From sequence record NC_129898.1: a stretch of 64,000 nucleotides of DNA. One strand, written 5' to 3'. The notes beneath the pieces were generated by a model. It was given only the letters and a program-made list of their open reading frames with translations, had not been told where the DNA came from and searched no databases. The position numbers and the translations under genes were made by a program. Source of the DNA: a phage. Position 1 is the first letter of the stretch; the number at the start of each line of letters is the position of its first letter. This document shows, one piece after another, positions 33,982 through 64,000 of this stretch.

Positions 33982-34743
33982 TTACAGTTCCATAAAGTTT
34001 TCTACGATGTCAATGAATGTTTTATCAGAGAAAGCGTCAACCGCCCCGTTAAACCAAACTGGGATGCCGCGATCCTCATACTGGTAAATGTCACTACGTG
34101 AAATGCCATTCTCCCCTAAATGCTGTGAGTCGTATTTGTTAACGATCAGTAGTTTAGTCCCCTTATTACAGGCAGGGAATAGCTCCCAGTTAAAATTGAT
34201 AACTGTGTTGGAGCACCCTACAAGGATAACCATATCATTGCTCGTCAGAGAAGTCAACAGGTCATACATGTCTACATACTTTGGAGCTACTTCTCCGAAG
34301 AACACTACATTAGGCTTGACCCAAGTATACTCGCTTGCATCTACCTCAGAGTATCCAATGTCTTTAATGACGTCATTCCCTTCATCATCCTCGTAGACTA
34401 TTTCTGGCAAATATCCGTGGACATGTAAAATATCTTCATGTTTTACACCAGCACGCTCCAGCAAATCATCTACATTGGTGGTCAGGTTGATCACACGACC
34501 AGACCAGCGGGAATACCATTCAGCTATCCGGAGATGTGCAAGGTTAGGATCAACACTGCCCAGAGCTACACGCCGTGCATTATAAAAGTCATGCACCTTA
34601 TAGTAGTTCTTGGCAAAGGTGTGGATGTTACACACCTCATCGATGCTGAAATTCTCCCACATTGCAGTGCCACCAGATCGGAAAGTTGGGATACCAGATT
34701 CAGCGCTCAAACCAGCACCGGAGATAATGATCAGTCGTCGCAT
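33982..34743 (-). CDS. Sir2-family (sirtuin-like) NAD-binding protein lacking zinc-ribbon cysteines
   Basis: GAGLSAESGIPTFR, PNLAHxxIA, TTNVDDL and HG motifs in canonical order; no CxxC...CxxC after the HG. Confidence 0.7.
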   Translation of the reverse strand: MRRLIIISGAGLSAESGIPTFRSGGTAMWENFSIDEVCNIHTFAKNYYKVHDFYNARRVALGSVDPNLAHLRIAEWYSRWSGRVINLTTNVDDLLERAGVKHEDILHVHGYLPEIVYEDDEGNDVIKDIGYSEVDASEYTWVKPNVVFFGEVAPKYVDMYDLLTSLTSNDMVILVGCSNTVINFNWELFPACNKGTKLLIVNKYDSQHLGENGISRSDIYQYEDRGIPVWFNGAVDAFSDKTFIDIVENFMEL

Positions 34744-34751
34744 AAGTGTCC

Positions 34752-35102
34752 TCAGTAGATGTTTTGTTTAATTTCTATTCCAAACTTTTTAAACGAGTCA
34801 GCAGCAAGCATGAATTTACGAGCCGCTGATGGGTTAGAAGTATGCACGAAAATCTTCACGTTGTCAACTACAGGAGGCTTACCAAATACAAATTTTTCCT
34901 CCAGTATGCAGAAGCAATCGTATCCTTCAAAAATTTCTCCCAAGTCGCTGTCAAAATGCCACTCAGAAACGCGTCTATATAGCTTTCCCTTGTCATTAAT
35001 GAAATCCATGAACTCAGAAGAACTCTTTAGCCAAAGAGCGTCTGGGAGCCCATAATTTGACGGATCTCTCAAATCATCTAGCCACACAATCAGCTTCTTC
35101 AT
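34752..35102 (-). CDS. hypothetical protein
   Basis: 116-aa ORF. Confidence 0.45.
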   Translation of the reverse strand: MKKLIVWLDDLRDPSNYGLPDALWLKSSSEFMDFINDKGKLYRRVSEWHFDSDLGEIFEGYDCFCILEEKFVFGKPPVVDNVKIFVHTSNPSAARKFMLAADSFKKFGIEIKQNIY

Positions 35103-36034
35103 TGCATATAGTCCTCGTTGTGGAAATAGCAGTCAAGTATCTCACGGCGTTCCTGCTCCAGGAGGCAATTCCACACATCTTCTGTGTAGTTTCTACGAAT
35201 GAAGTTTACCATGCCGTAAAACTCTTCGTCAACACGTTTAAAGATATCATCATCCCAAATCTTCCAAGCTCTACCCCTCATTACGACCTTCCGTGCCAGA
35301 TAGTAGGGAGACTTGATCTTTAGTTGCAGGTCATAAGGGTAGTAAGGCTTACGGATCATATACCCTTCGCCCCTTGTTTCTGCAGCCAACTCTTTTGCAT
35401 AGCTGAACGGAATTTCACGCACAGTGTGAGGACGTTTTGCACCAAGGTATTTGGCAATACCGTCTAAAGCTGCTTCTGGTAGCATTATTCCAGAATCATT
35501 GTATCGGCAACCGATCAAATAGGCACCATGATCTTCCTGAACAATATGCGGGTCTGAAGGGTGACAAATTTCAAACATGAATGTCATGTTTTCATGGCCC
35601 ATAACCTTCTTGATAAGATCTAAATTACCACATTGCTCCTGGATTGTTTCCTTTGCGAGGTTACAATATGGAGAATCAAGAGACCCTGTTGTTGAGAACA
35701 ACAGTTCACCTTTGTGAGATGATACCACACCAAGGAATCCGTTCTTTTTCTCTACCGCCGTCACAAGTTTATTGTCAGGCAGGTTGGTGGAATTTTCTCC
35801 CAAGTTAAACACTTTTGTGAAGGGCCATGCCACAACATTTCCTTCATTACCGACAACAATTCCTCGGCACTCTAGTAAACGCGGAGACAAATGCCATAGA
35901 TTGTTGTAAAATACTTTTCTGGCATATTTATAGATCTTTAACCCAAGATCTGGATAATACCGACTGGTTACAAGACCTTTATTCACTAAATCATCTGCAT
36001 TAAAATACTTCATCATACATTCCTCGTTTGTCAT
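35099..36034 (-). CDS. ligase-family nucleotidyltransferase, probable RNA ligase
   Basis: Motif I VEKKNGF (KxNG, no Arg at +5), motif IV EGYMIRK, motif V LKIKSP; 311 aa; a separate DNA ligase exists at 31342..32625. Confidence 0.55.
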   Translation of the reverse strand: MTNEECMMKYFNADDLVNKGLVTSRYYPDLGLKIYKYARKVFYNNLWHLSPRLLECRGIVVGNEGNVVAWPFTKVFNLGENSTNLPDNKLVTAVEKKNGFLGVVSSHKGELLFSTTGSLDSPYCNLAKETIQEQCGNLDLIKKVMGHENMTFMFEICHPSDPHIVQEDHGAYLIGCRYNDSGIMLPEAALDGIAKYLGAKRPHTVREIPFSYAKELAAETRGEGYMIRKPYYPYDLQLKIKSPYYLARKVVMRGRAWKIWDDDIFKRVDEEFYGMVNFIRRNYTEDVWNCLLEQERREILDCYFHNEDYMQ

Positions 36035-36077
36035 TTTGTCACTCTATCTTGCCACACAAATAAACTAGTGTCAACAC

Positions 36078-36106
36078 TTGAAATGAACAAAAGAGTTATG
36101 TATACT
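36078..36106 (+). promoter_or_regulatory. sigma70-like promoter for the plus-strand kinase operon
   Basis: TTGAAA (36078-36083), 17-nt spacer, TATACT (36101-36106); RBS GGAGG before ATG 36135. Confidence 0.55.
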
Positions 36107-36134
36107 ACCATTAAAATTAAAACGGAGGATTACT

Positions 36135-36545
36135 ATGTCTAAAATGCTATATATCGTGCGTGGTCTACCAGGTTCTGGCAAATCAACACTGGCAAATGCA
36201 CTATCTTTAGAGGGGCTGTACCCACATTTTGAGAACGACATGTTCTGGTACGACGACGATGGAAATTACAACTGGGATGCAAGTAAAGTAACACTTGCAG
36301 CAAAATGGTGCAAAGATAACGTAGAAGATATGATGCGTATGGGATACGACCGTGTCGTGGTAAGTAATACGTTTACAAAAGAAAAACATGTGCAAGAATA
36401 TGTTGACATGGCAATCAGTCATGGGTATAGTTATACTGTGATCGTGGTTGAAAACCGCCACGGTAATAAGAGCATTCATGATGTTCCAGATAGGGTTGTG
36501 GACCGTATGGAGCGTGAGCTTAAAAACTGCATTAAACTAAAATGA
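36135..36545 (+). CDS. P-loop kinase (polynucleotide-kinase-like)
   Basis: Walker A GLPGSGKST near the N-terminus; 136 aa; operonic with a metallophosphoesterase. Confidence 0.6.
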   Translation: MSKMLYIVRGLPGSGKSTLANALSLEGLYPHFENDMFWYDDDGNYNWDASKVTLAAKWCKDNVEDMMRMGYDRVVVSNTFTKEKHVQEYVDMAISHGYSYTVIVVENRHGNKSIHDVPDRVVDRMERELKNCIKLK

Positions 36546-36552
36546 GGGATGT

Positions 36553-37107
36553 ATGAAATATTTTGTAACAAGCGATACACACTTTCTCCACCAGCGAGTC
36601 ATGGAGTTTGATTCATGTCAAAAACACAGATCTCAGTATGATCACAATCTTGACAGTATGAACGAAGGAATCATTGCAGAGTGGAACTCTGTTGTATCAC
36701 CAGAAGACACTGTGTTTCACTTGGGCGATATTGCATGCACTAAGGATAAGAATATCAACAACTTATTTCCAGATATTCTAAATATGTTGAACGGACATAT
36801 TATTCTTGTTCGTGGTAACCATGACACAAGGACGACTGTCAGAATTATGAAAGAGTTCGGTAATGAGGTTGTAGATTATTACGAGCTTCGCCACAACAAG
36901 AATTTGATCTGTATGAGCCATTACCAGTTTGCAAAGTGGAACAGAAAGCCTCACGGATCAGTCCAACTGTTCGGTCATGCTCACGGAACCACACAGCAGT
37001 TGTTTGGCAGGCAGTTTGATGTCGGTTGGGATGTGTGGGGGAGACTCTTACCATTAGAAGAGGCATACCGTATTGCAATGAGTCTTGCTATTGACAGCGG
37101 GGAGTAA
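36553..37107 (+). CDS. calcineurin-like metallophosphoesterase
   Basis: SDTHF (DxH), LGDI (GD), GNHD, GHAHG motifs in order. Confidence 0.75.
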   Translation: MKYFVTSDTHFLHQRVMEFDSCQKHRSQYDHNLDSMNEGIIAEWNSVVSPEDTVFHLGDIACTKDKNINNLFPDILNMLNGHIILVRGNHDTRTTVRIMKEFGNEVVDYYELRHNKNLICMSHYQFAKWNRKPHGSVQLFGHAHGTTQQLFGRQFDVGWDVWGRLLPLEEAYRIAMSLAIDSGE

Positions 37108-37154
37108 TCCCTGCTATTTTAAAGAAAATTGCCACACAAGGAGAATCAGGAGAT

Positions 37155-37505
37155 ATGAAAGAGGAGGATAAGCTGCCATACCTTAAAGTCCCATTTGGAA
37201 TACTGTCTATGTCAAAAGTTTTGAATGATACAACTGGAGAGGTTGTTGTTCTTGACTTGTATGACAAGATCGTATACTGCTACCTGCACAACTGGTATAA
37301 GCTTGGAGGAAATTCACGCTTCACACCCAGCACAAGGAAAATTGCAGCAGATGTTGGGATAAAGAAAACAAAAGCAGCAGCGTGCGTTAAAACTTTAGAA
37401 TGTGCAGGAGTGGTTGAAATATCCACACAAGGGAGAGGTAAAAGATGCACATTTTCCAAAGTTTTGCCACCAGAAGAGGTTATTCGAATGTCAACAACTG
37501 GTTAG
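37155..37505 (+). CDS. helix-turn-helix DNA-binding protein candidate
   Basis: STRKIAADVGIKKTKAAACVKTLECAGVVE HTH-like segment; 116 aa; immediately upstream of the palindrome array. Confidence 0.45.
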   Translation: MKEEDKLPYLKVPFGILSMSKVLNDTTGEVVVLDLYDKIVYCYLHNWYKLGGNSRFTPSTRKIAADVGIKKTKAAACVKTLECAGVVEISTQGRGKRCTFSKVLPPEEVIRMSTTG

Positions 37506-37580
37506 ACCAGTAAAAACTTAAATATCTGTACTATAAGGATTCGTATGTTTTATGTCCATCCAAGAGCAGAGGGTAGTAAC

Positions 37581-37661
37581 TGTCCGTGATACGGACACTA
37601 CTGTCCGTCACGCGGACACATCTGCCCGTAATACGGACACTAACTGTCCGCAATACGGACA
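37581..37661. repeat. array of four 17-bp palindromic operator-like sites at ~21-bp pitch
   Basis: TGTCCGTGATACGGACA (37581-37597), TGTCCGTCACGCGGACA (37602-37618), TGCCCGTAATACGGACA (37623-37639), TGTCCGCAATACGGACA (37645-37661); half-sites TGTCCGT/ACGGACA. Confidence 0.7.
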
Positions 37662-37800
37662 CATAAAGAATATAACTAAAATAACTAAATAATAAAAAAA
37701 AATAAAAGATCTAGTAATTATGGTACTAAAGTACATATACTTAACTTATGTAGAATATACTAGATCCTAAGTACCATGTTTTAAATTTATTACTTACTAT

Positions 37801-38160
37801 TGGTAGTGTCGGCCCTTCATTGGCACTCGCCTACGAGGGGCGAGATGCCGGGCCTCCATAGTGCACACAATGACAGGAGTGCATACATGCAGGACTGTTA
37901 ACATGTGTGGGAGCGAAGCTATAGCGCAGGCCAAAGGCCGAGCACTAATGTGGACCACCGACGAAAGCTTGCCAGCGCCGTAAGGAGTCGGTTGAGAGCC
38001 TCCCGCGCGAGTTTAGTTAAAGTTTATGTGTGGAAACGGACAGGAAGGCCCCTAAATCGCCACACAGCTGCGTAAACTATACCAAGTAAGGCAATCGCAC
38101 CAGTTTGATAGAAAAGCTCGTTACAAAGCGATACAGTGAGTTTTTCTATAACTTGAAGAG
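37801..38160 (+). ncRNA. GC-rich ORF-free structured block (candidate non-coding RNA or leader)
   Basis: No ORF >=60 aa on either strand; nested helix GGCCC/GGGCC, GGCA/TGCC, CTCGCC/GGCGAG at 37811-37854. Confidence 0.25.
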
Positions 38161-54190: not shown

Positions 54191-56530
54191 ATGGCTACAA
54201 ACAAAATAGTTGCCACAACAGTCAACAAGATTGGCTTTGAGATAGAGAACTCCTCCTACAAAAAAGCTGTAGAGAAAATTCGCAGTATTGGGAGGGAGTT
54301 CAGGAAACTGGGCGAGGATTTTAACTCAGCCAACCCAATGAGTAGATGGCAGGCAGTGGCTGTTAAAACCCAGCAAACAATGCAGCGGGTTGCCAGACAG
54401 CAATCTCAGGCAAATGCTAAACTTCACAGGGAGAGCGTAGCACAAGCCAAGAAAGAGGCTGCAGTAAGGGCTGCAATAGAACGTAGGGAAAACGCAAGAC
54501 GTAAACAGGCTGTAGGTAATCTTACCGCTAAAAATCCAGAAATGGCCAGGATGCGTAAGTTCTACCAGCAGCAAGCTAAAGAGGCCAAAAAGGCTGCCAA
54601 ATCTACACCAGTGTCTTACGGCGGTTATAAGGCACCAAAGGCAAGAGTTTTGGCTAATGCCAAATCTTTCAAGTATATCCCAGGTAACCCTAATATGGGT
54701 GGTGTGGCTTCCGACCCTAACCTTGTGAAAGCTCAGACAGCCGCTATGAATCGTTATCATAGACAGCTAAGAAGAGACAGTAAAGCTGGTATGGATAATA
54801 AGCTTATGTCTGATCGTGAGGCAAGGAGAACCCACCTCTACAACTCTGCGATAAGACTTTCTGCCAAGTATGGGGCCGGATTCCGTGGAAGCTTGGCAGG
54901 ATACTCAGAGTTAGAGTCCAGGTTTGCTCGCGGGGAGATGAAAAAGTCAACCTTTAACGCCCACCTGTCAGCTCTGCAGTCTGGATTTAAAAGCGCCACC
55001 AGCCAAACGCTTACACTAGGTGATGCCATGAGGGACTTACGTAGGTCTGTTATTAATGCAACAGCTGCGTATACTGCTTTCTCTGGATTTACTGCTGTGA
55101 ACAGATCTGGTCACATGATGGAGGGGGCAAGTGCTGCTCTTACTGCTGTTACTGGAGATCCAAACAAAGCCAACAGTGAGGTTGCGTTTGTCCAGCAAGA
55201 GGCTATGCGTCTTGGTTTTGATCTCAAATCTGGTCTTCAAGGTTACGCCCAGATGGCGGTAAACGCCAAAAACCAGATGACAAATCAAGAGGTGCATGAG
55301 CTATTCTCTGCATACTCACAGTATGCTGCTGCTTACGGTGCCGATGAGGTAAAATACCAGCGTGGCATCATGGCAATCCAGCAAATGCTCGGTAAAGGAC
55401 AGGTAATGTCCGAAGAACTGAAGCAACAACTTGCTGAAGCATTGCCTGGTGCATACGAACCTTTTATCAAAGCCACCAAAGAGGCTTTTGGTCTTTCTGA
55501 ACTATCCATGGATCAGTTCATGGACATGATGAAGAAAGGTGAGGTTAAAACAGCCAAGATCATGAAGTATGTGGCTAAGTACATGAACGAGGCATCTGCA
55601 GCTGGTTATGAAAGAATGCAGAAGTCTAACGTACTGGCAGAAAACAGGCTGAAAACCTTCATCGAACTATCTCGTCAGAAGCTGTTCACCCGTTGGGCTG
55701 ATGAATTAACAGAGTTCTATTATACACTGATTCGCACAGGTGAGACTTTGCAATTTGTGTGGGATGCCTCTGGTGATTTTGTTAGCGGGTTTGTGAGAGG
55801 CCTCAACTGGGTAGTTGGTGAACTAAACAATACCATAGTCAAGATCCGCATGTTTTTCCTTGAATGGGGGATTAAATGGGGATTCATAACAGCTAAGACG
55901 AAGGAATATTCTGAAGAGCTTAATGACACCTTTAGCTATGCTAAATGGGCAGGGTTTGCTGCTGCCATCATGCTGGTAGTGAACGCCCTGACAAAAGGTT
56001 TTGTCATGGCATCTATGCTTGTAAAAACCTTCAAATTCCTTAGTTCTATAAGAGGCGCAGCTGGAGCAGCAGGTGCAGGTGCAGCTACCACAGAAGGATC
56101 TGGTGGTGGTGCGGCAGGAAAAGGGGGAGGTGGCCTCAAGACACCTGGCGGTAAAGTTGGCCTGCTTGGGAAGCTTGGTATTATCGGTACAATATTAAGT
56201 GCCGGGGAGTTATTTAATGACCGTTTCAACCCGCTGAGTGAGAGAAATCAGCAACTGGATACTATCAGCGATATGATTCGCAAAGATATCATATCGGGAG
56301 GTAACGGGTTTGTTGATCCTTTGGACACCTTACCGGGAGGGACTCTTCCGTTGCCGGGTGGTCCTGGTTTTGCTTCTCAATTAAGAACTATGGAAATGCT
56401 ACCTTTAGAGATCAGTGATGGCAAAATCACGATTTCAATAGATGAGGGGGAGTTTAGCAAAATACTTGATGCAAAACTTGAGTGGGAGAATAACAAAGAT
56501 ATTAACTTTATGTCAACAGATCTTTGGTAA
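54191..56530 (+). CDS. tail tape measure protein
   Basis: 779 aa, Ala/Gln/Lys-rich helical N-terminal half, hydrophobic segment and Gly-rich tract (GAAGAAGAGAATTEGSGGGAAGKGGGG); follows the chaperone pair. Confidence 0.75.
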   Translation: MATNKIVATTVNKIGFEIENSSYKKAVEKIRSIGREFRKLGEDFNSANPMSRWQAVAVKTQQTMQRVARQQSQANAKLHRESVAQAKKEAAVRAAIERRENARRKQAVGNLTAKNPEMARMRKFYQQQAKEAKKAAKSTPVSYGGYKAPKARVLANAKSFKYIPGNPNMGGVASDPNLVKAQTAAMNRYHRQLRRDSKAGMDNKLMSDREARRTHLYNSAIRLSAKYGAGFRGSLAGYSELESRFARGEMKKSTFNAHLSALQSGFKSATSQTLTLGDAMRDLRRSVINATAAYTAFSGFTAVNRSGHMMEGASAALTAVTGDPNKANSEVAFVQQEAMRLGFDLKSGLQGYAQMAVNAKNQMTNQEVHELFSAYSQYAAAYGADEVKYQRGIMAIQQMLGKGQVMSEELKQQLAEALPGAYEPFIKATKEAFGLSELSMDQFMDMMKKGEVKTAKIMKYVAKYMNEASAAGYERMQKSNVLAENRLKTFIELSRQKLFTRWADELTEFYYTLIRTGETLQFVWDASGDFVSGFVRGLNWVVGELNNTIVKIRMFFLEWGIKWGFITAKTKEYSEELNDTFSYAKWAGFAAAIMLVVNALTKGFVMASMLVKTFKFLSSIRGAAGAAGAGAATTEGSGGGAAGKGGGGLKTPGGKVGLLGKLGIIGTILSAGELFNDRFNPLSERNQQLDTISDMIRKDIISGGNGFVDPLDTLPGGTLPLPGGPGFASQLRTMEMLPLEISDGKITISIDEGEFSKILDAKLEWENNKDINFMSTDLW

Positions 56531-56543
56531 TAAACAGCACACA

Positions 56544-56569
56544 GGGGGCTCCGGCCCCCTTTATTTTAT
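56544..56569 (+). terminator. intrinsic terminator
   Basis: GGGGGC-TCCG-GCCCCC followed by TTTATTTTA. Confidence 0.8.
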
Positions 56570-56636
56570 CGGTGTTGTAAAAACGGCTATTTTATGATAC
56601 AATATTTAGATGGTATCGGAGTGTCCTGGAGAGGTT

Positions 56637-57521
56637 ATGCCAAGCAATATAGTTGATGAAAAAGACCTGTACAAGCCTCAAGAGGTTAAATCTCCAAAGG
56701 CTGAAAAGGCAGAACAGCAAACTGAAAGCGATGTAAAGTACACTATGTTTGTCAGCGGTCTTAACTATGGTGGTCGCAATACGGAGATGAAGGGTAAAAA
56801 CTTTACTAACGATCTTGCCATCATCTTCGATCAGATTGAGAACTACTCTTTCAAACATACTGTTGATAAGACTGATTTTGCGGTGGAAGATAAATCTACC
56901 CTGTCAGACCACGCTGTAATTAAAGATGGTGTATTTTCTTTTACTGGTAGGGTAAATACATCACCACATATAATCTATGAGCAAAACTACATTGACAGGA
57001 ATACTGACTCTAAAAACCCTGCAGCATCTATGCGACCGGGCGCTGCACTGGAGGCTTTGACTGAGATCATTAATAAGCGCCAGTTGGTTTCTTTGGTTAC
57101 CGAGGAAAGACTCCTTGAGAACTACATCATAACCAGCCTTTCTGCCAACAAGTCTGTTGGTGAAGGTGCTGCGATGGTGTTTGATGTAGAACTTACAGAG
57201 TTCCGCACATTCTACTTGAACAAGGTTGTTAATGCAACTGTATACAGCAACCCTAAGAAAGTAGGCAAGACCCAGCAAAAAGGTGCTGTCAACGACTGTA
57301 AGAATGGCAGTAACGTAGGTAACAAGAGGGACACAGGGGCATTTGCAGACACTGCCTCCACAAATGCCGCAGAAGAGTGGCAGCCATACAAATCTATGAT
57401 GTGGACGGATGAAAACGGTGTTACCCAATCCGCAGCAGATTGGTATTATCAGGAATATGGAAGACCTTCTACCATAGTCCCATCTGAGCAGGGAAACTAC
57501 AACAAAGTTAACGGAAAATAA
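56637..57521 (+). CDS. tail/baseplate protein candidate
   Basis: ATG 56637 with GGAGAGG RBS; first gene after tape measure. Confidence 0.5.
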   Translation: MPSNIVDEKDLYKPQEVKSPKAEKAEQQTESDVKYTMFVSGLNYGGRNTEMKGKNFTNDLAIIFDQIENYSFKHTVDKTDFAVEDKSTLSDHAVIKDGVFSFTGRVNTSPHIIYEQNYIDRNTDSKNPAASMRPGAALEALTEIINKRQLVSLVTEERLLENYIITSLSANKSVGEGAAMVFDVELTEFRTFYLNKVVNATVYSNPKKVGKTQQKGAVNDCKNGSNVGNKRDTGAFADTASTNAAEEWQPYKSMMWTDENGVTQSAADWYYQEYGRPSTIVPSEQGNYNKVNGK

Positions 57522-57533
57522 GGGGAGCGTGTA

Positions 57534-57914
57534 ATGGAACTTAAAGATTGGTGCATAATCACCTTTGTGTGGGACATTGACGGCTTTCCTGATCAAACCA
57601 TGCGTGTTGTTTTAGACAATGAGACGTATGAAATGCGTATGCAATGGAATGAGAGGGATGAGTCCTGGTGGTTATCTCTTGGTCCGGTAGGTGACAGCCC
57701 TTTAGTAACTAGAAAAGTAACAGCTTGTCAAGATATTCTAGACGGACTGCATTACAGAGACGATTTACCGAAAGGTAGATTGATGGTGCTGTCGTTTAAA
57801 GACGATCAATATTGGGGAAGGGTTGGAAGATACAACCTTGGAGCAAGGTCTGAGCTGCAACTTGTATACGGTACCCCAGTTGATCTTTACAAGGAACAGC
57901 AAGGGTTAGAATAA
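57534..57914 (+). CDS. tail/baseplate protein candidate
   Basis: 126-aa ORF. Confidence 0.5.
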   Translation: MELKDWCIITFVWDIDGFPDQTMRVVLDNETYEMRMQWNERDESWWLSLGPVGDSPLVTRKVTACQDILDGLHYRDDLPKGRLMVLSFKDDQYWGRVGRYNLGARSELQLVYGTPVDLYKEQQGLE

Positions 57915-58912
57915 TGGCAGAGTACAGACGTAGAACATGGCGACTGTTGTTTGGTCGTCCTGTAGAGCATGGCGGTAAATCAAAAACCAATATCCCAAAA
58001 TCTGTTGAAAAGAAAGGAGAGAGTGATTCCGGAGTTTATGAGATTAGTTCGGACACTGGTGCTGCCAATATAGAGTTTGACATACAAAAGGACAATACCA
58101 AAGAGCCAAACAAAGGCTATGTGACAGTTTACAACCTGTCTGACGATACAGTTAACTATCTAGATATGCATCAAGCTGATGCTCTTGCAGTTATGTTTGA
58201 GGCTGGCTATGATAATGAGAACCAGTTGATATTCTCTGGAACTGTAGAGTTTGTTGAGGACAGATGGGAAGGCCCGACCAGAAAAACTAAGTTCATCTTT
58301 GGGGATGGCACTGAGAACATCATTAAGTGCCAAAGCACAAGATCTTATCAGAAAGGTACACCTCTGAACTCTGTGCTTAATGACCTACTGAAGGATATGA
58401 ACTTGCCAAAAGGTAGGGTTGTTGGTTTTGGAAACCAGACTTTGCAATACTCTATGGCTTTCTCTGGAAACACTGCAGAGAACCTCCGCAGGTTTGCAAG
58501 GCTGACCAACTCGACGTTTAGCGTTCAGGATGGGGCTTTGTATTGGACCAAGGTTGGAAAAAGGTTCAAGGATTCTGTGTTTGAAATAAGTGCAGAATCT
58601 GGGATGCACGGATCACCTACTCCTAAAAACCCAGAACCTGCTAAAAAACGAAAAGCTAAAGCTGCTGCGAAAGGTGGCACAAGTAAGAAAAAGAAAAACC
58701 CGAGAGAGGATGTTGGTCTTACTGTAACCACATGTCTCAACGGAGCTATCCTCCCAGAGTCCACCATTTATCTTAAAAGCAGGCAGTACACAGGCTTCTA
58801 TAAGGTGATCACAGTGCATCATAAGGGCACCATAGAAGGTGGTGATTACACTACAGAGCTTGGCCTTGGGGAAACAGTGGGTGGAGTTGTTGACAAAACT
58901 GAGGAGGTATAA
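57914..58912 (+). CDS. baseplate protein candidate
   Basis: 332 aa; overlapping stop/start with neighbours. Confidence 0.45.
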   Translation: MAEYRRRTWRLLFGRPVEHGGKSKTNIPKSVEKKGESDSGVYEISSDTGAANIEFDIQKDNTKEPNKGYVTVYNLSDDTVNYLDMHQADALAVMFEAGYDNENQLIFSGTVEFVEDRWEGPTRKTKFIFGDGTENIIKCQSTRSYQKGTPLNSVLNDLLKDMNLPKGRVVGFGNQTLQYSMAFSGNTAENLRRFARLTNSTFSVQDGALYWTKVGKRFKDSVFEISAESGMHGSPTPKNPEPAKKRKAKAAAKGGTSKKKKNPREDVGLTVTTCLNGAILPESTIYLKSRQYTGFYKVITVHHKGTIEGGDYTTELGLGETVGGVVDKTEEV

Positions 58913-59589
58913 TGGCAATAAATAGGAAAGATGCTGCTGTAAGATCCTTTATAGAAAAAATAATGAGGGACTACCACACCAGTATCAGGGCCAGAGTTGT
59001 CAGTGTAGATTACAGTATCCCCTCCGCAGCAGTGCAGCCAATAGCTGAAACCACGTTTGATGACGGAGATGTTGAGAGATACCCTCTTATCTATGATGTG
59101 CCAATCCAGGTGATGTCTGCAAACAGTGGGAAGGCAAGGTTAACACTTCCTATTAAGGCTGGAGATGTTGTAGGATTGCAGTTTTCAGAGAGAAATGAAA
59201 ACAATAATGATGATCAACAAACTCACGGCCTGTTTCCAGGGTGGGCAATAACCTCTGTTCATTCAGACTCTAACGCTCTGCAGATCGATCCTGATAATGT
59301 AGAGTTATGGAATGATAGGGTTTATTTTAAGCTTACACCTTCTGGTGATTTTGAGCTTCAAACACCCGGTGGGACATTACGGTGCGACAGCAGCGGGGAG
59401 TTTTCTTTCACCAACGGAGCTGCCAATTTACGAGCTGCTGTGGACGGAAATATTAGAATGAATGGTGCCACAATAGACCCATCGGGCAGAATCATAACTG
59501 CTGCTGGTGTGGATTTGGACTCATTCTATGCAGAATATAAAGGTCATACCCACTCTTGCCCTGATGGTGAGACAAGTGGACCGCACTAA
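58912..59589 (+). CDS. baseplate protein candidate
   Basis: 225-aa ORF. Confidence 0.45.
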   Translation: MAINRKDAAVRSFIEKIMRDYHTSIRARVVSVDYSIPSAAVQPIAETTFDDGDVERYPLIYDVPIQVMSANSGKARLTLPIKAGDVVGLQFSERNENNNDDQQTHGLFPGWAITSVHSDSNALQIDPDNVELWNDRVYFKLTPSGDFELQTPGGTLRCDSSGEFSFTNGAANLRAAVDGNIRMNGATIDPSGRIITAAGVDLDSFYAEYKGHTHSCPDGETSGPH

Positions 59590-59601
59590 TAGAGGGCTTG
59601 C

Positions 59602-60318
59602 ATGGCTACGCTTTATAGTGATATATTGATGGACCCACAGACAGGCGATTTGGCGATAGACAAAGGTCTTAAGTTGATAGACTCGAACCAAGTAAGTCTG
59701 CGCCAGCGCCTGTGGATGAGGTTTAATACCTGGAAAGGGAGCTGGTACTTTGACGAATTGTTTGGCTTCCCTTATATGGACTTTCTTAGCAAGAAAGTCA
59801 TGAAGACTGTTCTTGATAACAAGATTATGGAAGTGGCAAGACAAGAGCCGGATGTGCTAAACATCATAAACTTCCAATCTACCATGGATCGAAGATCGAG
59901 AACATATCAAGCGTTCTTTGAGGTTGTTACCAAGGAGAACGAGATTGTAAGACTTGCTTTCGTAGGTCTTGATCAGTTTACCTATCCACAACCTGATTCT
60001 GGGACAACCTCTCTATGTGATGATGAAGGTTGGATTAAGTGGGCTAATAAACTGTATTACCTGATCAACTTCAGGTTGCCTAGAACCGGGGATGCCACAT
60101 GGTGGAACCAGTATGCTGGTCCTGAGATGGAAAACCCGATCCCTGTAGGATCTCTGTTGACTCAGGATAAAGATCTGCTGATGACCGAGGCAGAACAAAC
60201 CATTAACCGCAATACCTGGACGCTTGCTCCAGATGAGCGCGAATACTCTGGTGTTATTGCTACCTCTAATGATGAGGCTATTGCCAACCAGTCTGGTCGT
60301 GCTATTGATGTTAACTAA
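59602..60318 (+). CDS. baseplate protein candidate
   Basis: 238-aa ORF. Confidence 0.45.
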   Translation: MATLYSDILMDPQTGDLAIDKGLKLIDSNQVSLRQRLWMRFNTWKGSWYFDELFGFPYMDFLSKKVMKTVLDNKIMEVARQEPDVLNIINFQSTMDRRSRTYQAFFEVVTKENEIVRLAFVGLDQFTYPQPDSGTTSLCDDEGWIKWANKLYYLINFRLPRTGDATWWNQYAGPEMENPIPVGSLLTQDKDLLMTEAEQTINRNTWTLAPDEREYSGVIATSNDEAIANQSGRAIDVN

Positions 60319-60327
60319 GGAGAAATC

Positions 60328-60996
60328 ATGGCTGTAGCTTATCCTACAATACCAATTCCAGATCTTGAAGATGCAGAAACAGTCCTGAGTGATGACTTCT
60401 TGGTTGTCAATCAGACTGATGGGACAAGAAAGGCTAAGATTGACGATGTTGTCAACGATCTCAGCATTACCAAAATAGTCTATTTCACAGAGGGTGGTTA
60501 TCTTAAGAGCAAGAAGGACTTTGCTTATGACCCAGAGACCAAGCGCTACTACACGTGGAACGGGGATTATCCTAAAATAATCCTTCCAGACTCTACTGTA
60601 GAGGGTGCTGGAGGTGTGTCTGCAAAAGCCTGGTCTGTTTTTGGGGAGCTTGCTGCAACTTCTTCTGGCAGAATAGTTGATTACGGATCTATTGGTGGTC
60701 AGCTTGATATGGATCTTGAAGTTGCGGACACTTTTAAAGTTCGACTAACTTCAAATACCACAATCTCTTTTGAAAATCAAACAGAAGGCCTTGAAGGGGT
60801 GGCGAGAACTATAACCGTATGCATTACTCAGACCTCTGGAGGCAACAAAGTCTATTGGCCTGATAATGTTAAATGGGCATACGGAAGAGATCCTATCCTA
60901 ACATTTACAGCTGGTGCAACAGATATTTTCAAGTTAGAAACCTACGACAACGGGCTAACTTGGTACGGGGCACTGATTATAGCAGGAGCTATCTAA
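60328..60996 (+). CDS. fibre/adaptor protein sharing an N-terminal domain with the ORF at 63631
   Basis: N-terminal DDFLVVNQTDGTRKAKIDDVV ... FTEGGYL ... DFAY ... WNGDYP recurs in the ORF starting at 63631. Confidence 0.45.
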   Translation: MAVAYPTIPIPDLEDAETVLSDDFLVVNQTDGTRKAKIDDVVNDLSITKIVYFTEGGYLKSKKDFAYDPETKRYYTWNGDYPKIILPDSTVEGAGGVSAKAWSVFGELAATSSGRIVDYGSIGGQLDMDLEVADTFKVRLTSNTTISFENQTEGLEGVARTITVCITQTSGGNKVYWPDNVKWAYGRDPILTFTAGATDIFKLETYDNGLTWYGALIIAGAI

Positions 60997-60997
60997 G

Positions 60998-63595
60998 ATG
61001 CGTATTCAACACAACATTGATAACGTATTTCAGATGATTGAGGGGCACAGGAAGTGCCTCGATAACAACACAGGCATTACCAATCTCCCCACGCAGAACA
61101 AACTGGTAAACCAGGATGGACTTATAGCGTCAGGTTGGTCAGGGAGTAAGATAAATAATGATTGGGCAATGCATGAAGCTCAGGCTGTGTTGATTCTGGG
61201 GTACATTGAGGCATACAGGGCATCAAAAAGCGATTTTTACCTAGATAGGGCCAAAGAAGCTTGGGAAGCCTACAACAGTCATCTTCTGGGTGCCTATGCA
61301 GTAGAAAGTAAAATGCAAAGATTGTCCCACTACCCATTATCCACAGATGGGGTTCCATCACATGGTGGATTTAAAGATGTAGTGGTGTCTTTTACCAATG
61401 GTAGAGGAAAAATCCCAGCTGGATCTCCGACATGGGGGGAATACTTAGACAAGGCATTCCAAGCGTATAACGGTGTGCTAGGAAGAAACACTGTAGACTC
61501 TGATGTTTACGGCGGCACAGATGCTAACCCAAATTGGACAACATCTGGATTAAGTTGGTGGGTTGAGTGGTATATAGCATGGGATGGTAACCGCTATTGG
61601 GCCAACGGTAGCATAGCCGACAGTGGTCATACGTCTGTAGAGTTCGGCACAATCCAACTGCAGGATAAGGGTGTTACAGGCAGCCACAAGGTAACCTACT
61701 GTGTAAGATTGCCACAAGAGCAGGGTGGATCGGTGATACCTGCTGGATCCCCTGTAATTGTAAATCCTATAAATGTGGTTGCAGACAATCAAGCCCCAGA
61801 GTTGGATGGGGAAGAAATGTGGTGTGACGCTTGTTATCAACTCTACACCTTGACAGGTGAGGAAAAGTATTACACAGCGTTTAAGCAGTCTTACAACAAG
61901 CTGCTTAATTTCAGCGATATAAATGCCTACGACAAACTGTTTAGAAAGACCACGTTAATTAAGGCACCGTTCACAGATGGTACTTGTCTAGTCGCAGGAA
62001 CAGTTCCTGTCATGAGCAGGGACAGCGACGGGTATATCAATTTTAGAATGAACGCACGTCAGCCTTGCGAAATAATTCAAAAAGGGACTACATACAAGAT
62101 AGGCAGAGATGCTGAAATTGTTATGAATTTCGGAGGAGAAGGGGTTCTGTTCCAGCCACACTTCATCCTTAACGATGGCAACAATAACAAAAAACAGTAT
62201 AGGATAGGTGTCCCTTTTGGAGGGGCAGAGGTAACAGAGACAGTTGCCAAGGTTACTGATTTCGTAGAGGTGGTTGGTAAAGATGGTAACCCGTATCTCT
62301 TACCAAAAGAGGAAAACATTGTCGTAAGCGGTGGCGCTAGTGTTAGTATGCAGTATGATACCGACATTTATAACCACTCCGACAACTTCACCCGTTGCAA
62401 CATAGCAAGAGGCAAGGTAACTTTCAATTTTGGAAGAGAGATTTCTTTAAACTCAGTAACTTATCGATCAGATGATGAGATGATAAGGGTCAAATTTCTT
62501 GACAAAGACCGTTGGTTATGGTATGCTGATCTATATGCCACTAATGGACAATGGATAACAGAAACTCTTACCCTAGGTGATTTTAAACTAGACCCAACAC
62601 AACCTCATCACACAGAAGATGAGATTAAACCTTTCTTTGCTAACCCTAAAGGAATTACCTCTGTAGATTTCAGTCTGAGCGACAGGCAGATAGGCAATGG
62701 CTTGTTCGATCTGTATTGCGTCAACACGCTGCCACAATTTTATGTTGCAGATAGGGATGCTTATCTGATCTGGTTTAGTGTATGGATGGCAAGCAAGACA
62801 GAATCAACAGCCAAGGTTGGTGATTGCTATGTCAGAAACTACAAGCAAGGTGCCTACAGGCACACCCCAGGTGTGTTCCCTGCCGGAAAGGTGATAGACA
62901 AGGAAAATTATCTCTTAGAGGAAAGGCCAAATTGGCCCTATCCTGGAATGCAATATCCGGTAGTCTACTGTATGGGTGCGGAAAACATAGATCGCCAAAG
63001 ATTGGCAAATACCATTGGATTTATGTACGACTCCCAAGTTTGGTATAACAACACATTTAAAACAGAAGGGCCAGTTGCATCTCGCTATGTATGGCAGAGG
63101 GGTAATGAGGGGTTGACTGGTTGGTGGGAGATGGTAGATAACTCTAAACTCCAATCAAGAGCCTTTGTTGCTGCGTGTCGCACACTATATGAGCTTAAGA
63201 AACATAAAGAACCTGTTGATGAAAGACTGTTCCTGTTCTGCCAGAAATGGGCATGGTTCCTCAACAGATTCCAGTCATCTCATTCCGGAAATCTTCCTAC
63301 AGACTTCAACACCTCAGGAGGATATTCTTATCAAGACAGAGGTGACAGGATGTGGGTGGTAGGTGAATGGCTTGCAGGTTGCTGCTGGCTAGGCCTTTGT
63401 GGGTATTCAGAGACAATACCTCAAATAGATATTGTTGTAGAAGCCTGTGTGAAGTTACTGCAAAAGCACCACTTCATTAACGGGGATAATGTTTTAAACG
63501 GCTGCTGGGCAGTTTCTGATCCGGTAGGCTATCACTCTGGCGAAATCCTTCGCGGTCTGGGACTTTATGCTCAATACCGTGGATTGTACCTTTAA
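60998..63595 (+). CDS. large Trp/Gly/Tyr-rich tail protein (possible receptor-binding or depolymerase-like protein)
   Basis: 865-aa ORF between two paralogous fibre-like ORFs; no catalytic motif recognised. Confidence 0.45.
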   Translation: MRIQHNIDNVFQMIEGHRKCLDNNTGITNLPTQNKLVNQDGLIASGWSGSKINNDWAMHEAQAVLILGYIEAYRASKSDFYLDRAKEAWEAYNSHLLGAYAVESKMQRLSHYPLSTDGVPSHGGFKDVVVSFTNGRGKIPAGSPTWGEYLDKAFQAYNGVLGRNTVDSDVYGGTDANPNWTTSGLSWWVEWYIAWDGNRYWANGSIADSGHTSVEFGTIQLQDKGVTGSHKVTYCVRLPQEQGGSVIPAGSPVIVNPINVVADNQAPELDGEEMWCDACYQLYTLTGEEKYYTAFKQSYNKLLNFSDINAYDKLFRKTTLIKAPFTDGTCLVAGTVPVMSRDSDGYINFRMNARQPCEIIQKGTTYKIGRDAEIVMNFGGEGVLFQPHFILNDGNNNKKQYRIGVPFGGAEVTETVAKVTDFVEVVGKDGNPYLLPKEENIVVSGGASVSMQYDTDIYNHSDNFTRCNIARGKVTFNFGREISLNSVTYRSDDEMIRVKFLDKDRWLWYADLYATNGQWITETLTLGDFKLDPTQPHHTEDEIKPFFANPKGITSVDFSLSDRQIGNGLFDLYCVNTLPQFYVADRDAYLIWFSVWMASKTESTAKVGDCYVRNYKQGAYRHTPGVFPAGKVIDKENYLLEERPNWPYPGMQYPVVYCMGAENIDRQRLANTIGFMYDSQVWYNNTFKTEGPVASRYVWQRGNEGLTGWWEMVDNSKLQSRAFVAACRTLYELKKHKEPVDERLFLFCQKWAWFLNRFQSSHSGNLPTDFNTSGGYSYQDRGDRMWVVGEWLAGCCWLGLCGYSETIPQIDIVVEACVKLLQKHHFINGDNVLNGCWAVSDPVGYHSGEILRGLGLYAQYRGLYL

Positions 63596-63599
63596 CATA

Positions 63600-63620
63600 G
63601 GGGGCTGTTTGCCCCCTTTC
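63600..63620 (+). terminator. terminator-like hairpin
   Basis: GGGGGC-TGTTT-GCCCCC followed by TTTC (short U-tract). Confidence 0.4.
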
Positions 63621-63630
63621 AGGAGAAAGA

Positions 63631-64000
63631 ATGGCTGATATTAAAGTTGTCAGAATTGAATCTCTTCCTGCCACTACCGCAGTGGCAGAGGATGATTACC
63701 TGGTTGTTCAACAACCAGACCTGACCCGTCGTGTAAAAATTGGCGATGTTGTCCATATAGATGGGACTGTTTCTCATGTAATCTCCTTTAAGGAAGGTGG
63801 TAAGTTAAACGGCCCAATGGATTTTGCCTACTTCGAAGAGGAAGACCTCTACCTGCGTTGGAAAGGCGAATTTCCGCACACTGTTCCTGCACTGTCTTCA
63901 CCGTACGCCGATGGTGGGATTACCGATGCTGCATGGATGGTATATACAGACCCGTCCTTAAGAGAGGAGCTGGAGTCTACCATTGGCGCATCTATGATCA
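63631..64000 (+). CDS. fibre-like protein (5' part; runs off the window)
   Basis: ATG 63631 with GGAGA RBS; N-terminus EDDYLVVQQPDLTRRVKIGDVV ... FKEGGKL ... DFAY paralogous to 60328..60996. Confidence 0.5.
   Translation, partial: MADIKVVRIESLPATTAVAEDDYLVVQQPDLTRRVKIGDVVHIDGTVSHVISFKEGGKLNGPMDFAYFEEEDLYLRWKGEFPHTVPALSSPYADGGITDAAWMVYTDPSLREELESTIGASMI

What the first reader, a model, noticed from the sequence alone, without database searches (positions are those of the whole stretch)
60328..64000. Two fibre-like proteins share an N-terminal module, flanking an 865-aa Trp/Gly-rich protein
60328..60996 and the ORF starting at 63631 share about 90 aa of N-terminal sequence (DD(F/Y)LVV(N/Q)Q.D.TR...KI.DVV, F.EGG.L, DFAY, G(D/E)(Y/F)P) and then diverge. 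A conserved virion-attachment domain with variable distal parts is the hallmark of interchangeable receptor-binding proteins. The large ORF between them (60998..63595) has no recognisable catalytic motif and may be a receptor-binding or polysaccharide-degrading protein.
Basis: seen in the sequence. Interest (0 to 1): 0.5.

Follow-up and report, generated by a model that had tools for sequence, protein, structure and literature searches.

The report
Phage tail adaptor–enzyme pair and fibre
In this rV5-like E. coli phage, a small tail protein and a long tail fibre share an N-terminal attachment module, and the small protein looks like an adaptor for the large sugar-processing enzyme encoded next to it, a two-gene pairing that recurs in many unrelated phages.

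Summary
A (60328..60996, 222 aa) and C (63631..>64000, cut by the window end) share about 100 N-terminal residues (38% identity, BLASTP E=1e-20). Both reach Pfam's cut-off for Tail_spike_N (PF18668). The window is a Vequintavirus (rV5-like) coliphage, and rV5 proteomics found the orthologues of all three proteins (gp43, gp42, gp41) in virions.

A is not a variable receptor-binding protein, because A and B are conserved across the genus. Only the last third of C is exchanged between relatives.

The main new result concerns A and B. In all 77 loci where it could be tested, the gene directly upstream of a B homologue ends in A's C-terminal domain, usually with overlapping stop and start codons. 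The N-terminal parts of these partner proteins fall into 15 unrelated groups.

Best reading: A is an adaptor that carries enzyme B into the baseplate fibre network, using the same kind of anchor as fibre C. Physical binding between A and B is inferred, not shown. The genes are already in GenBank under generic names. The pairing and the adaptor reading were not found in the literature searched here. Interest is moderate.

The parts
60328..60996 (+). Protein A, 222 aa, orthologue of rV5 gp43. Proposed adaptor made of an N-terminal anchor and a C-terminal B-coupling domain.
   Evidence: ORF. phrog_7760 'tail fiber protein' E=6e-119. rV5 gp43 was detected in virions (PMC3606486).
60328..60465 (+). 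N-terminal peptide of A (aa 1-46), shared with C. Probably the docking element.
   Evidence: Alignment across lineages. It is the only part of the N-module kept in the 157-aa phi92-like A orthologue. In Sf11 gp13 (9occ) the virion contact is made by residues 4-59, proximal to the Pfam-type domain.
60478..60639 (+). Tail_spike_N (PF18668) domain of A, aa 51-104.
   Evidence: Pfam 40.5 bits against a cut-off of 25. PDB hits 9occ_G, 8x8m, 5w6f, 4qnl and 4oj5.
60670..60993 (+). C-terminal domain of A (aa 115-222). Beta-rich, with no Pfam or PDB relative. Always found at the end of the gene directly upstream of a B homologue.
   Evidence: hmmsearch hits in 73 loci and in L081-L085. Alignment A6. 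No solved homologue.
60998..63595 (+). Protein B, 865 aa, orthologue of rV5 gp42 and, by synteny, phi92 gp141. Predicted (alpha/alpha)6 glycosidase-type toroid interrupted by beta-rich inserts.
61370..61759 (+). First beta-rich insert of B (aa 125-254), low model confidence.
   Evidence: Secondary structure and pLDDT.
61982..62839 (+). Central beta-sandwich region of B (aa 329-614), resembling a carbohydrate-binding module. Part of it is a mobile module (phrog_23426).
63599..63617 (+). GC-rich stem-loop in the 35-nt B-C spacer. It separates the coupled A-B pair from C.
   Evidence: Sequence. Centroid fold -15.1 kcal/mol, z=-1.9. It does not pass the terminator scan because it has only three T after the stem.
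63631..64000 (+). N-terminal 123 aa of protein C, a long tail fibre (orthologue of rV5 gp41). It is 1479 aa in the closest relative, HMD-6. It carries the shared N-module at aa 7-105.
   Evidence: phrog_6578 'tail fiber protein'. The tip is exchanged between relatives.

Best explanation
The region encodes two separate attachment units of the rV5-type baseplate fibre network, and both use the same kind of N-terminal anchor.

Unit 1 is the translationally coupled pair A and B. A is a short adaptor, presumed to be a trimer by analogy with tailspike N-termini (not tested). Its N-terminal peptide and Tail_spike_N domain plug it into the baseplate periphery. Its conserved C-terminal beta-domain holds B. 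B has no anchor of its own. It is a large (alpha/alpha)6 toroid with carbohydrate-binding-type beta-sandwich inserts, and it most likely binds and cleaves or modifies a conserved surface glycan of enterobacteria.

Unit 2 is C, a long fibre that docks through the same anchor type. Its distal third is the exchangeable, host-specific tip.

Shown here: the A/C N-terminal homology, B's predicted fold class, the strict A-Cterm/B gene pairing and coupling, the modular exchange of A's N-terminal part, and the variability of C's tip. Taken from published work: the presence of all three proteins in rV5 virions. Inferred: physical binding of B to A's C-terminal domain, the docking site, enzymatic activity, and the substrate.
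For: (1) N-module homology: E=1e-20, with PF18668 in both proteins.

(2) Context: the genes lie directly after the tape measure, tube initiator, plug, hub, spike and sheath initiator genes, which matches phi92 gp134-gp139.

(3) rV5 gp41, gp42 and gp43 were found in virions by mass spectrometry.

(4) In 71 of 71 testable IMG/VR loci, 2 metagenome/prophage loci and 5 cultured phages from other groups (phi92-like, ZCSE2, the jumbo phage JN03, Vibrio phage D528, SeKF_13), the ORF ending at B's start carries A's C-terminal domain at its extreme C-terminus.

(5) The stop-to-start spacing is -20 to +12 nt in the 77 loci measured, and between -4 and +1 in 66 of them. In the window it reads TAA-G-ATG, with AGGAG inside A's 3' end.

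(6) Among 24 non-redundant pairs, the N-terminal parts of the A-like proteins fall into 15 unrelated groups of 45-451 aa, including PF08400 phage_tail_N and SPRY-containing forms, while the C-terminal domain is kept. Its divergence tracks that of B, r=0.72.

(8) A and B are conserved across the genus, whereas C's tip is swapped.

(9) In ZCSE2 the pair sits at a different genome position, between neck and sheath genes, so it moves as a cassette.
Against: There is no direct evidence that A binds B. No A-Cterm::B fusion was found among 150 family representatives, so the Rosetta-stone test was negative. The AF2 model of A was unusable (pLDDT 45), and no complex prediction could be run. Conserved gene order with coupling is also typical of fibre-plus-chaperone pairs. 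The (alpha/alpha)6 fold also includes non-hydrolases such as epimerases and cyclases. No catalytic residues could be placed, and B matches no glycoside hydrolase family by sequence. No T4 gp10-like branching domain or other docking partner was identified in the locus proteins that were scanned. The mirror-tree correlation is confounded by shared ancestry, and the rank correlation is only 0.43. B's model has mean pLDDT 63.9, with 239 residues below 50.
Confidence: 0.6

Rival explanations
1. A and C are alternative, interchangeable receptor-binding proteins that share a virion-attachment domain and carry different distal specificity domains. B is an independent receptor-binding protein or depolymerase lying between them.
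For: The shared anchor-type N-module is real. C does have an exchangeable distal part. A's C-terminal domain is a small beta-domain that could in principle bind a ligand.
Against: The DNA segment holding A is 90-99% identical in all 119 relatives, so A shows none of the allelic variation expected of a specificity determinant. A has only about 110 residues beyond the anchor. A's C-terminal domain never occurs without B directly downstream in 77 loci. B has no anchor of its own, yet rV5 gp42 is in the virion.
Confidence: 0.15
2. A is a self-sufficient short spike whose C-terminal domain needs B for folding or trimerisation. In this model B is a large assembly factor or tip cap, as with fibre-plus-downstream-chaperone or adhesin pairs such as S16 gp37/gp38 or Mu gpS/gpU, rather than an enzyme that A displays.
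For: The gene order (fibre, then a tightly coupled downstream gene) is the classic arrangement for tail-fibre assembly proteins (own knowledge). Pairing is strict and spacing is tight. Some such partners stay on the fibre tip (own knowledge).
Against: B is 865-1170 aa with an enzyme-type toroid, carbohydrate-binding-type inserts and conserved polar residues. That is far larger and more elaborate than known fibre chaperones. In distant family members the B module is fused directly to tail-tip proteins such as Phage_min_tail and Prophage_tail, which suggests it is itself a displayed functional module.
Confidence: 0.15
3. The A/C similarity is only a relic of an old internal duplication or a recombination footprint, with no shared docking function today.
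For: Tail-fibre genes recombine often and share N-terminal segments (BASEL).
Against: At 38% identity the duplication is old, yet the module is kept in both proteins in the window and in another lineage whose B is only 56-57% identical (L011-L013). In the phi92-like locus the peptide is kept in the A orthologue and in the fibre at the gp143 position. The most conserved part is the extreme N-terminal peptide, which suggests selection for a common partner.
Confidence: 0.07

Closest known systems
Branched receptor-binding-protein systems with a conserved docking peptide or anchor: Klebsiella phages KP32/K11/KP34, CBA120 TSP1-4, G7C gp63.1/gp66 (PMC6872550, PMC13352976, PMC8825819)
   Same: Several distal proteins carry related N-terminal anchor segments that plug into a common scaffold. 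The PF18668 domain found here is the one defined on CBA120 TSP1 and G7C gp66. The distal parts are enzymatic or exchangeable.
   Different: In those systems each enzyme carries its own anchor. Here the anchor and the enzyme are split over two genes (A and B). The enzyme is an (alpha/alpha)6 toroid, not a beta-helix tailspike. No T4 gp10-like branching domain was found in the locus proteins scanned.
phi92 gp140, gp141 and gp143, and the unassigned 'fibre II' of the phi92 baseplate (PMC13450770; Schwarzer 2012 as cited in PMC5380687)
   Same: The locus is syntenic. In the phi92-like phage PaulScherrer, a 157-aa A-like gene and a 958-aa B-like gene follow the sheath initiator, and the fibre at the gp143 position carries the same N-module. 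gp141 is listed as a 'glycosidase'.
   Different: The phi92-type A keeps only the N-terminal peptide and the C-terminal domain, with no Tail_spike_N. B is about 35% identical. The 2026 phi92 paper tested gp140 alone as a candidate for fibre II, never mentions gp141, and left fibre II unassigned.
Six-hairpin (alpha/alpha)6 glycosidase superfamily: GH105, GH88, GH8, GH76, GH15 and AGE-type epimerases
   Different: Sequence identity is only 9-14%. B matches no Pfam glycoside hydrolase family. The toroid is split by two large beta-rich inserts. Catalytic residues and activity are unverified.
Fibre plus downstream-encoded distal subunit or chaperone (S16 gp37/gp38, Mu gpS/gpU, T4 gp37/gp38)
   Same: A two-gene unit in which a virion-anchored protein is followed by a tightly coupled partner that acts at its distal end.
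   Different: The partner here is a protein of roughly 860-1170 aa with an enzyme-type fold. The anchored protein is minimal, with no rod or shaft. This comparison rests on my own knowledge of those systems.
Sf11 tailspike gp13 on the distal tail protein gp17 (PDB 9occ, PMC12724387)
   Same: It is the best PDB sequence match to the shared module (E=3e-10 to C, 5e-5 to A). It shows that the extreme N-terminus (residues 4-59) makes the virion contact and that the Pfam-type domain follows it.
   Different: Sf11 is a siphophage. Its N-terminal contact is a three-helix bundle around a helix of the distal tail protein. The N-terminal peptides of A and C show no sequence similarity to that segment; the matches start at about residue 50.

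Membership tests
Pfam PF18668 Tail_spike_N (TSP1/Gp66 N-terminal domain) | Score above the curated gathering cut-off (25 bits) | tested here: met
   A 40.5 bits (aa 51-104). C 38.5 bits (aa 46-103 of the HMD-6 orthologue)..
Branched RBP system (KP32 / CBA120 / G7C type) | A conserved N-terminal docking segment shared by the distal proteins | tested here: met
   A and C share the peptide and the domain. Both are conserved in other lineages.
Branched RBP system (KP32 / CBA120 / G7C type) | A primary RBP or scaffold with a T4 gp10-like branching domain that receives the docking segment | tested here: not met
   No Gp10_C or related Pfam hit in A, B, C or nine other proteins of the fibre locus. 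Only sequence profiles were tried, and some small proteins were not scanned, so a structural equivalent is not excluded.
Branched RBP system (KP32 / CBA120 / G7C type) | Physical attachment of the distal proteins to the scaffold | not testable with these tools
   Needs cryo-EM, pull-downs or complex prediction.
Six-hairpin (alpha/alpha)6 glycosidase superfamily | (alpha/alpha)6 toroid fold | tested here: met
   [not shown]
Six-hairpin (alpha/alpha)6 glycosidase superfamily | Sequence membership of a defined glycoside hydrolase family | tested here: not met
   No Pfam or NCBIfam hit for B. Only 1 of 40 distant relatives touches GH76, at E=6e-5.
Six-hairpin (alpha/alpha)6 glycosidase superfamily | Catalytic acid/base residues in the central pocket, and glycosidase activity | tested here: inconclusive
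   D270, D502, E849, Q652, Q680 and R721 are conserved in at least 85% of 122 family members. Activity is not testable here.
   [not shown]
Tail-fibre assembly chaperone (Tfa/gpU/gp38 type), considered for B | A small protein (about 150-260 aa) matching known Tfa families | tested here: not met
   B is 865 aa with no Pfam or NCBIfam match. PHROG calls it 'tail protein'. rV5 gp42 is a virion component.
A-Cterm/B two-gene cassette (defined here) | An A-type C-terminal domain at the end of the gene directly upstream of a B homologue, with a tight junction | tested here: met
   All 77 loci with upstream sequence available have it. The window junction is TAA-G-ATG..

The most novel reading that the evidence does not exclude
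The A-B pair is a portable 'adaptor plus enzyme' cassette: a minimal trimeric adaptor whose conserved C-terminal domain displays a non-fibrous (alpha/alpha)6 glycan enzyme. It has been grafted onto at least 15 different anchor types in myophages, jumbo phages and prophages. In rV5- and phi92-type phages, this complex (rV5 gp43-gp42, phi92 gp140-gp141) would be the short, thick, rigid 'fibre II' that attaches at the base of fibre I and that the 2026 phi92 cryo-EM study could not assign. That study screened only fibre-like proteins one at a time.
Probability: 0.3. Interest if true: 0.6.

Novelty: new variant of a known kind. Interest (0 to 1): 0.4.

Why it matters
[quoted passage not shown] The 2026 phi92 structure still leaves one fibre unassigned.

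Recognising A and B as one unit, anchored through the same module as the long fibre C, gives a concrete and testable assignment. It also explains how an enzyme with no anchor of its own gets into the virion.

The cassette recurs on many different anchors, which suggests a natural plug-and-play design. That design could be used to graft glycan-degrading enzymes onto other phage tails.

If the adaptor reading is wrong, the region is still an ordinary, already annotated tail-fibre locus.

Tried and rejected
1. AF2 of A, using 4 sequences, gave pLDDT 45. The model was not usable, so no fold search was run on it.

2. A profile of A's C-terminal domain against PDB sequences gave only a chance match to a segment of Rpb4 (E=0.004), which I rejected.

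3. Rosetta-stone test: no B-family representative has A's C-terminal domain fused in front of the B module. One 293-aa chimera, P0071, has the reverse order and is uninterpretable.

4. The search for related loci with the A-Cterm alignment failed because no stretch was conserved enough. The reverse co-occurrence test, whether A-Cterm ever occurs without B, was therefore not done beyond the loci already held. Each of those loci has exactly one copy, always adjacent to B.

5. The word-indexed protein search found few homologues. The exhaustive HMMER search was needed to size the B family.

6. The stem-loop between B and C is not a canonical terminator and its folding z-score is only -1.9, so I treat it as a minor feature.

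7. The Bas63 and phiTE structure papers were checked for orthologues of A or B. Keyword searches found no glycosidase or hydrolase component in their fibre networks.

8. Schwarzer et al. 2012 on phi92 is not in the library, so its density assignments for gp141 and gp142 could not be checked.

9. The full-length C of this exact phage lies outside the window. The closest relative, HMD-6 (98.3% identical over window 56001-64000), was used instead, and the tip allele of the window's phage remains unknown.
Full report
**What the window is.** The region 58000-64000 is 90-99% identical at DNA level to 119 phage records, nearly all Escherichia phages of the rV5 type (genus Vequintavirus). The best matches are HMD-6 (97.9%) and FV3 (97.6%). 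The finding lies at the start of the tail-fibre locus. Upstream on the same strand are the tape measure (54191), tube initiator (56610), plug (57534), hub (57914), central spike (58912) and sheath initiator (59602) genes. This is the same order as phi92 gp134-gp139. I call the three ORFs A (60328..60996, 222 aa), B (60998..63595, 865 aa) and C (63631 to beyond 64000). By gene order counted back from the tape measure gp49, and by the sizes and descriptions in the rV5 paper, they correspond to rV5 gp43, gp42 and gp41. All three were detected in rV5 virions by mass spectrometry.

**Checking the observation.** BLASTP of A against the 123 residues of C available in the window gives 38% identity over 99 residues, E=1e-20, and nothing beyond that. 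Both proteins pass Pfam's gathering cut-off for PF18668 Tail_spike_N. Their best PDB sequence matches are the N-terminal regions of tailspikes from Sf11, CBA120 and G7C.

An alignment across lineages shows the module has two parts: an N-terminal peptide of about 45 residues, and then the Pfam domain. In the phi92-like phage PaulScherrer, the A orthologue is only 157 aa. It keeps the peptide and runs straight into the C-terminal domain. The fibre at the position of phi92's endosialidase gp143 carries both the peptide and the domain. In the one virion structure that contains a relative of this module, Sf11 (PDB 9occ), the contact with the tail is made by residues 4-59, proximal to the Pfam-type domain. 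I therefore take the N-terminal peptide to be the likely docking element. This is an inference.

**What varies and what does not.** The segment holding A, B and the start of C is 90-99% identical at DNA level in all 119 relatives. B is at least 90% identical at protein level in 119 records. C is different. Using the full 1479-aa orthologue from HMD-6 as query, only 34 of 121 records cover at least 80% of it. In the rest, similarity stops after nt ~2800-2990, which is aa ~935-996. This agrees with BASEL's remark that only the three largest fibre genes show allelic variation. The picture of a conserved anchor with a variable distal part therefore applies to C, and only to its last third. It does not apply to A.

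B is therefore predicted to be an (alpha/alpha)6 'six-hairpin' toroid interrupted by beta-rich inserts, not a beta-helix. The family has 326 representative clusters among 1.84 billion proteins. It occurs in 524 cultured-phage records from several groups: Vequintavirus, phi92/phAPEC8-like, GAP31, jumbo phages, ZCSE2-like, Kolesnikvirus and Vibrio phages. One distant member touches Pfam GH76, and 11 of 40 distant members carry a Phage_min_tail domain. Residues D270, W274, D502, Y651, Q652, Q680, R721 and E849 are conserved in at least 85% of 122 members. B is enriched in Trp and Tyr.

The glycosidase-type annotation is not new. BASEL records call the orthologue a 'lateral tail fiber protein with glycosidase domains', and phi92 gp141 is listed as a glycosidase. 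Activity and substrate remain untested. The known receptors of these phages are assigned to other proteins: the NGR glycan to the deacetylase fibre, and the LPS core to the short fibres.

**The main new result: A and B form a conserved two-gene cassette.** Two distant B homologues, one in a myophage contig and one in a Burkholderia prophage, were each preceded by a gene whose C-terminus matched A's last ~85-150 residues (E=3e-20 and 3e-9), while the N-terminal parts were unrelated. I then fetched 74 IMG/VR loci with B homologues, most of them 24-32% identical to B.

- In all 71 loci where upstream DNA is present, the ORF ending at B's start carries the A-type domain at its extreme C-terminus. 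The three misses are loci cut at B's start.
- The same holds in PaulScherrer, ZCSE2, the jumbo phage JN03, Vibrio phage D528 and SeKF_13.
- Across the 77 loci measured, the stop-to-start spacing is -20 to +12 nt, and 66 fall between -4 and +1.
- In the window the junction is TAA-G-ATG, with AGGAG inside A's 3' end. B and C are separated by 35 nt containing a GC-rich stem-loop.
- Among 24 non-redundant pairs, the N-terminal parts of the A-like proteins fall into 15 unrelated groups of 45-451 aa, including PF08400 and SPRY-containing forms. The C-terminal domain is kept, and its divergence correlates with that of B, r=0.72.
- In ZCSE2 the pair sits between neck and sheath genes, so it travels as a unit.

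**Mechanism.** B is a virion protein with no anchor. A is little more than an anchor plus a conserved domain that never occurs apart from B in the loci examined. The simplest explanation is that A is an adaptor. Its N-terminus plugs into the baseplate periphery in the same way as fibre C, and its C-terminal domain holds the enzyme B. The enzyme then acts on a conserved surface glycan, while C supplies strain-specific binding through its exchangeable tip. The gene pairing and coupling are shown here. The physical A-B contact, the docking site and the enzymatic activity are inferred.

Several results count against this reading or leave it untested. No A::B fusion was found. A's model was unusable. 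No gp10-like branching domain was found in the locus proteins scanned. Tight fibre-plus-downstream-gene pairs can also be fibre-plus-chaperone pairs. I put the adaptor model at about 0.6.

**Relation to known systems.** The arrangement works like the branched receptor-binding systems of CBA120, G7C and the Klebsiella podophages, in which distal proteins share a docking segment. It differs in three ways: anchor and enzyme are split over two genes, the enzyme is a toroid rather than a beta-helix, and the receiving scaffold is unidentified.

The 2026 phi92 structure assigns fibre I to gp143 and fibre III to gp147. It leaves fibre II unassigned, describing it as 'short, thick, and rigid' and attached at the base of fibre I. 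The authors screened fibre-like proteins, including gp140, singly, and the paper never mentions gp141. The phi92-like A orthologue and the gp143-position fibre share the docking peptide. A gp140-gp141 complex is therefore a reasonable candidate for fibre II. This is the most novel reading, at about 0.3 probability.

**Verdict.** The genes themselves are already known and generically annotated. The adaptor-enzyme cassette and its modular anchors appear to be undescribed in the literature I could search, and they amount to a new variant of a known kind of system. Interest is moderate.

Noticed in passing
GenBank records MG065635, MG065647, MG065653, MG065658, MG065662, MG065676 and others: Between 18 and 23 records named 'Campylobacter phage', most listing host C. 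jejuni, are 91-97% identical to this E. coli rV5-like locus. The host label looks doubtful; contamination or mislabelling is possible.
   Followed up: no
L001:19632-24071 (full-length C orthologue in HMD-6): The exchangeable tip of C in this allele contains an NCBIfam GTA_spike_fiber ('phage head spike fiber') domain at aa 1113-1317 (E=8e-21) and a weak Laminin_G_3 match at the extreme C-terminus. The rV5 allele instead ends in an endosialidase-type chaperone domain, according to PMC3606486.
   Followed up: partly
window 63599-63617: A GC-rich stem-loop (GGGGGCT/GCCCCC) lies in the 35-nt spacer between B and C. Its centroid energy is -15.1 kcal/mol, its z-score is only -1.9, and it is not called a terminator by the scan. 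It may attenuate transcription or stabilise the A-B mRNA.
   Followed up: partly
[not shown]
   Followed up: no
L085:2478-3983 (Salmonella phage SeKF_13): A 502-aa 'tail protein' two genes upstream of the B homologue carries a separate copy of B's beta-sandwich (B profile positions 438-580). This corresponds to phrog_23426, so the insert is a mobile module.
   Followed up: partly
L082 (Salmonella phage ZCSE2), 2869-6446: Here the A-B cassette lies between head/neck genes and the tail sheath gene rather than next to baseplate genes.
   Followed up: no
P0071 (293 aa, from the representative library): An odd chimera: the first ~166 positions of the B profile are followed directly by an A-type C-terminal domain. 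It could be a real rearrangement or an assembly artefact.
   Followed up: no
window ~34000-38000: GC skew and AT skew change sign near 36 kb. This is consistent with a switch from minus-strand to plus-strand genes at the start of the structural module.
   Followed up: no
Neither the Pfam nor the NCBIfam copy used here matched A.
   Followed up: partly
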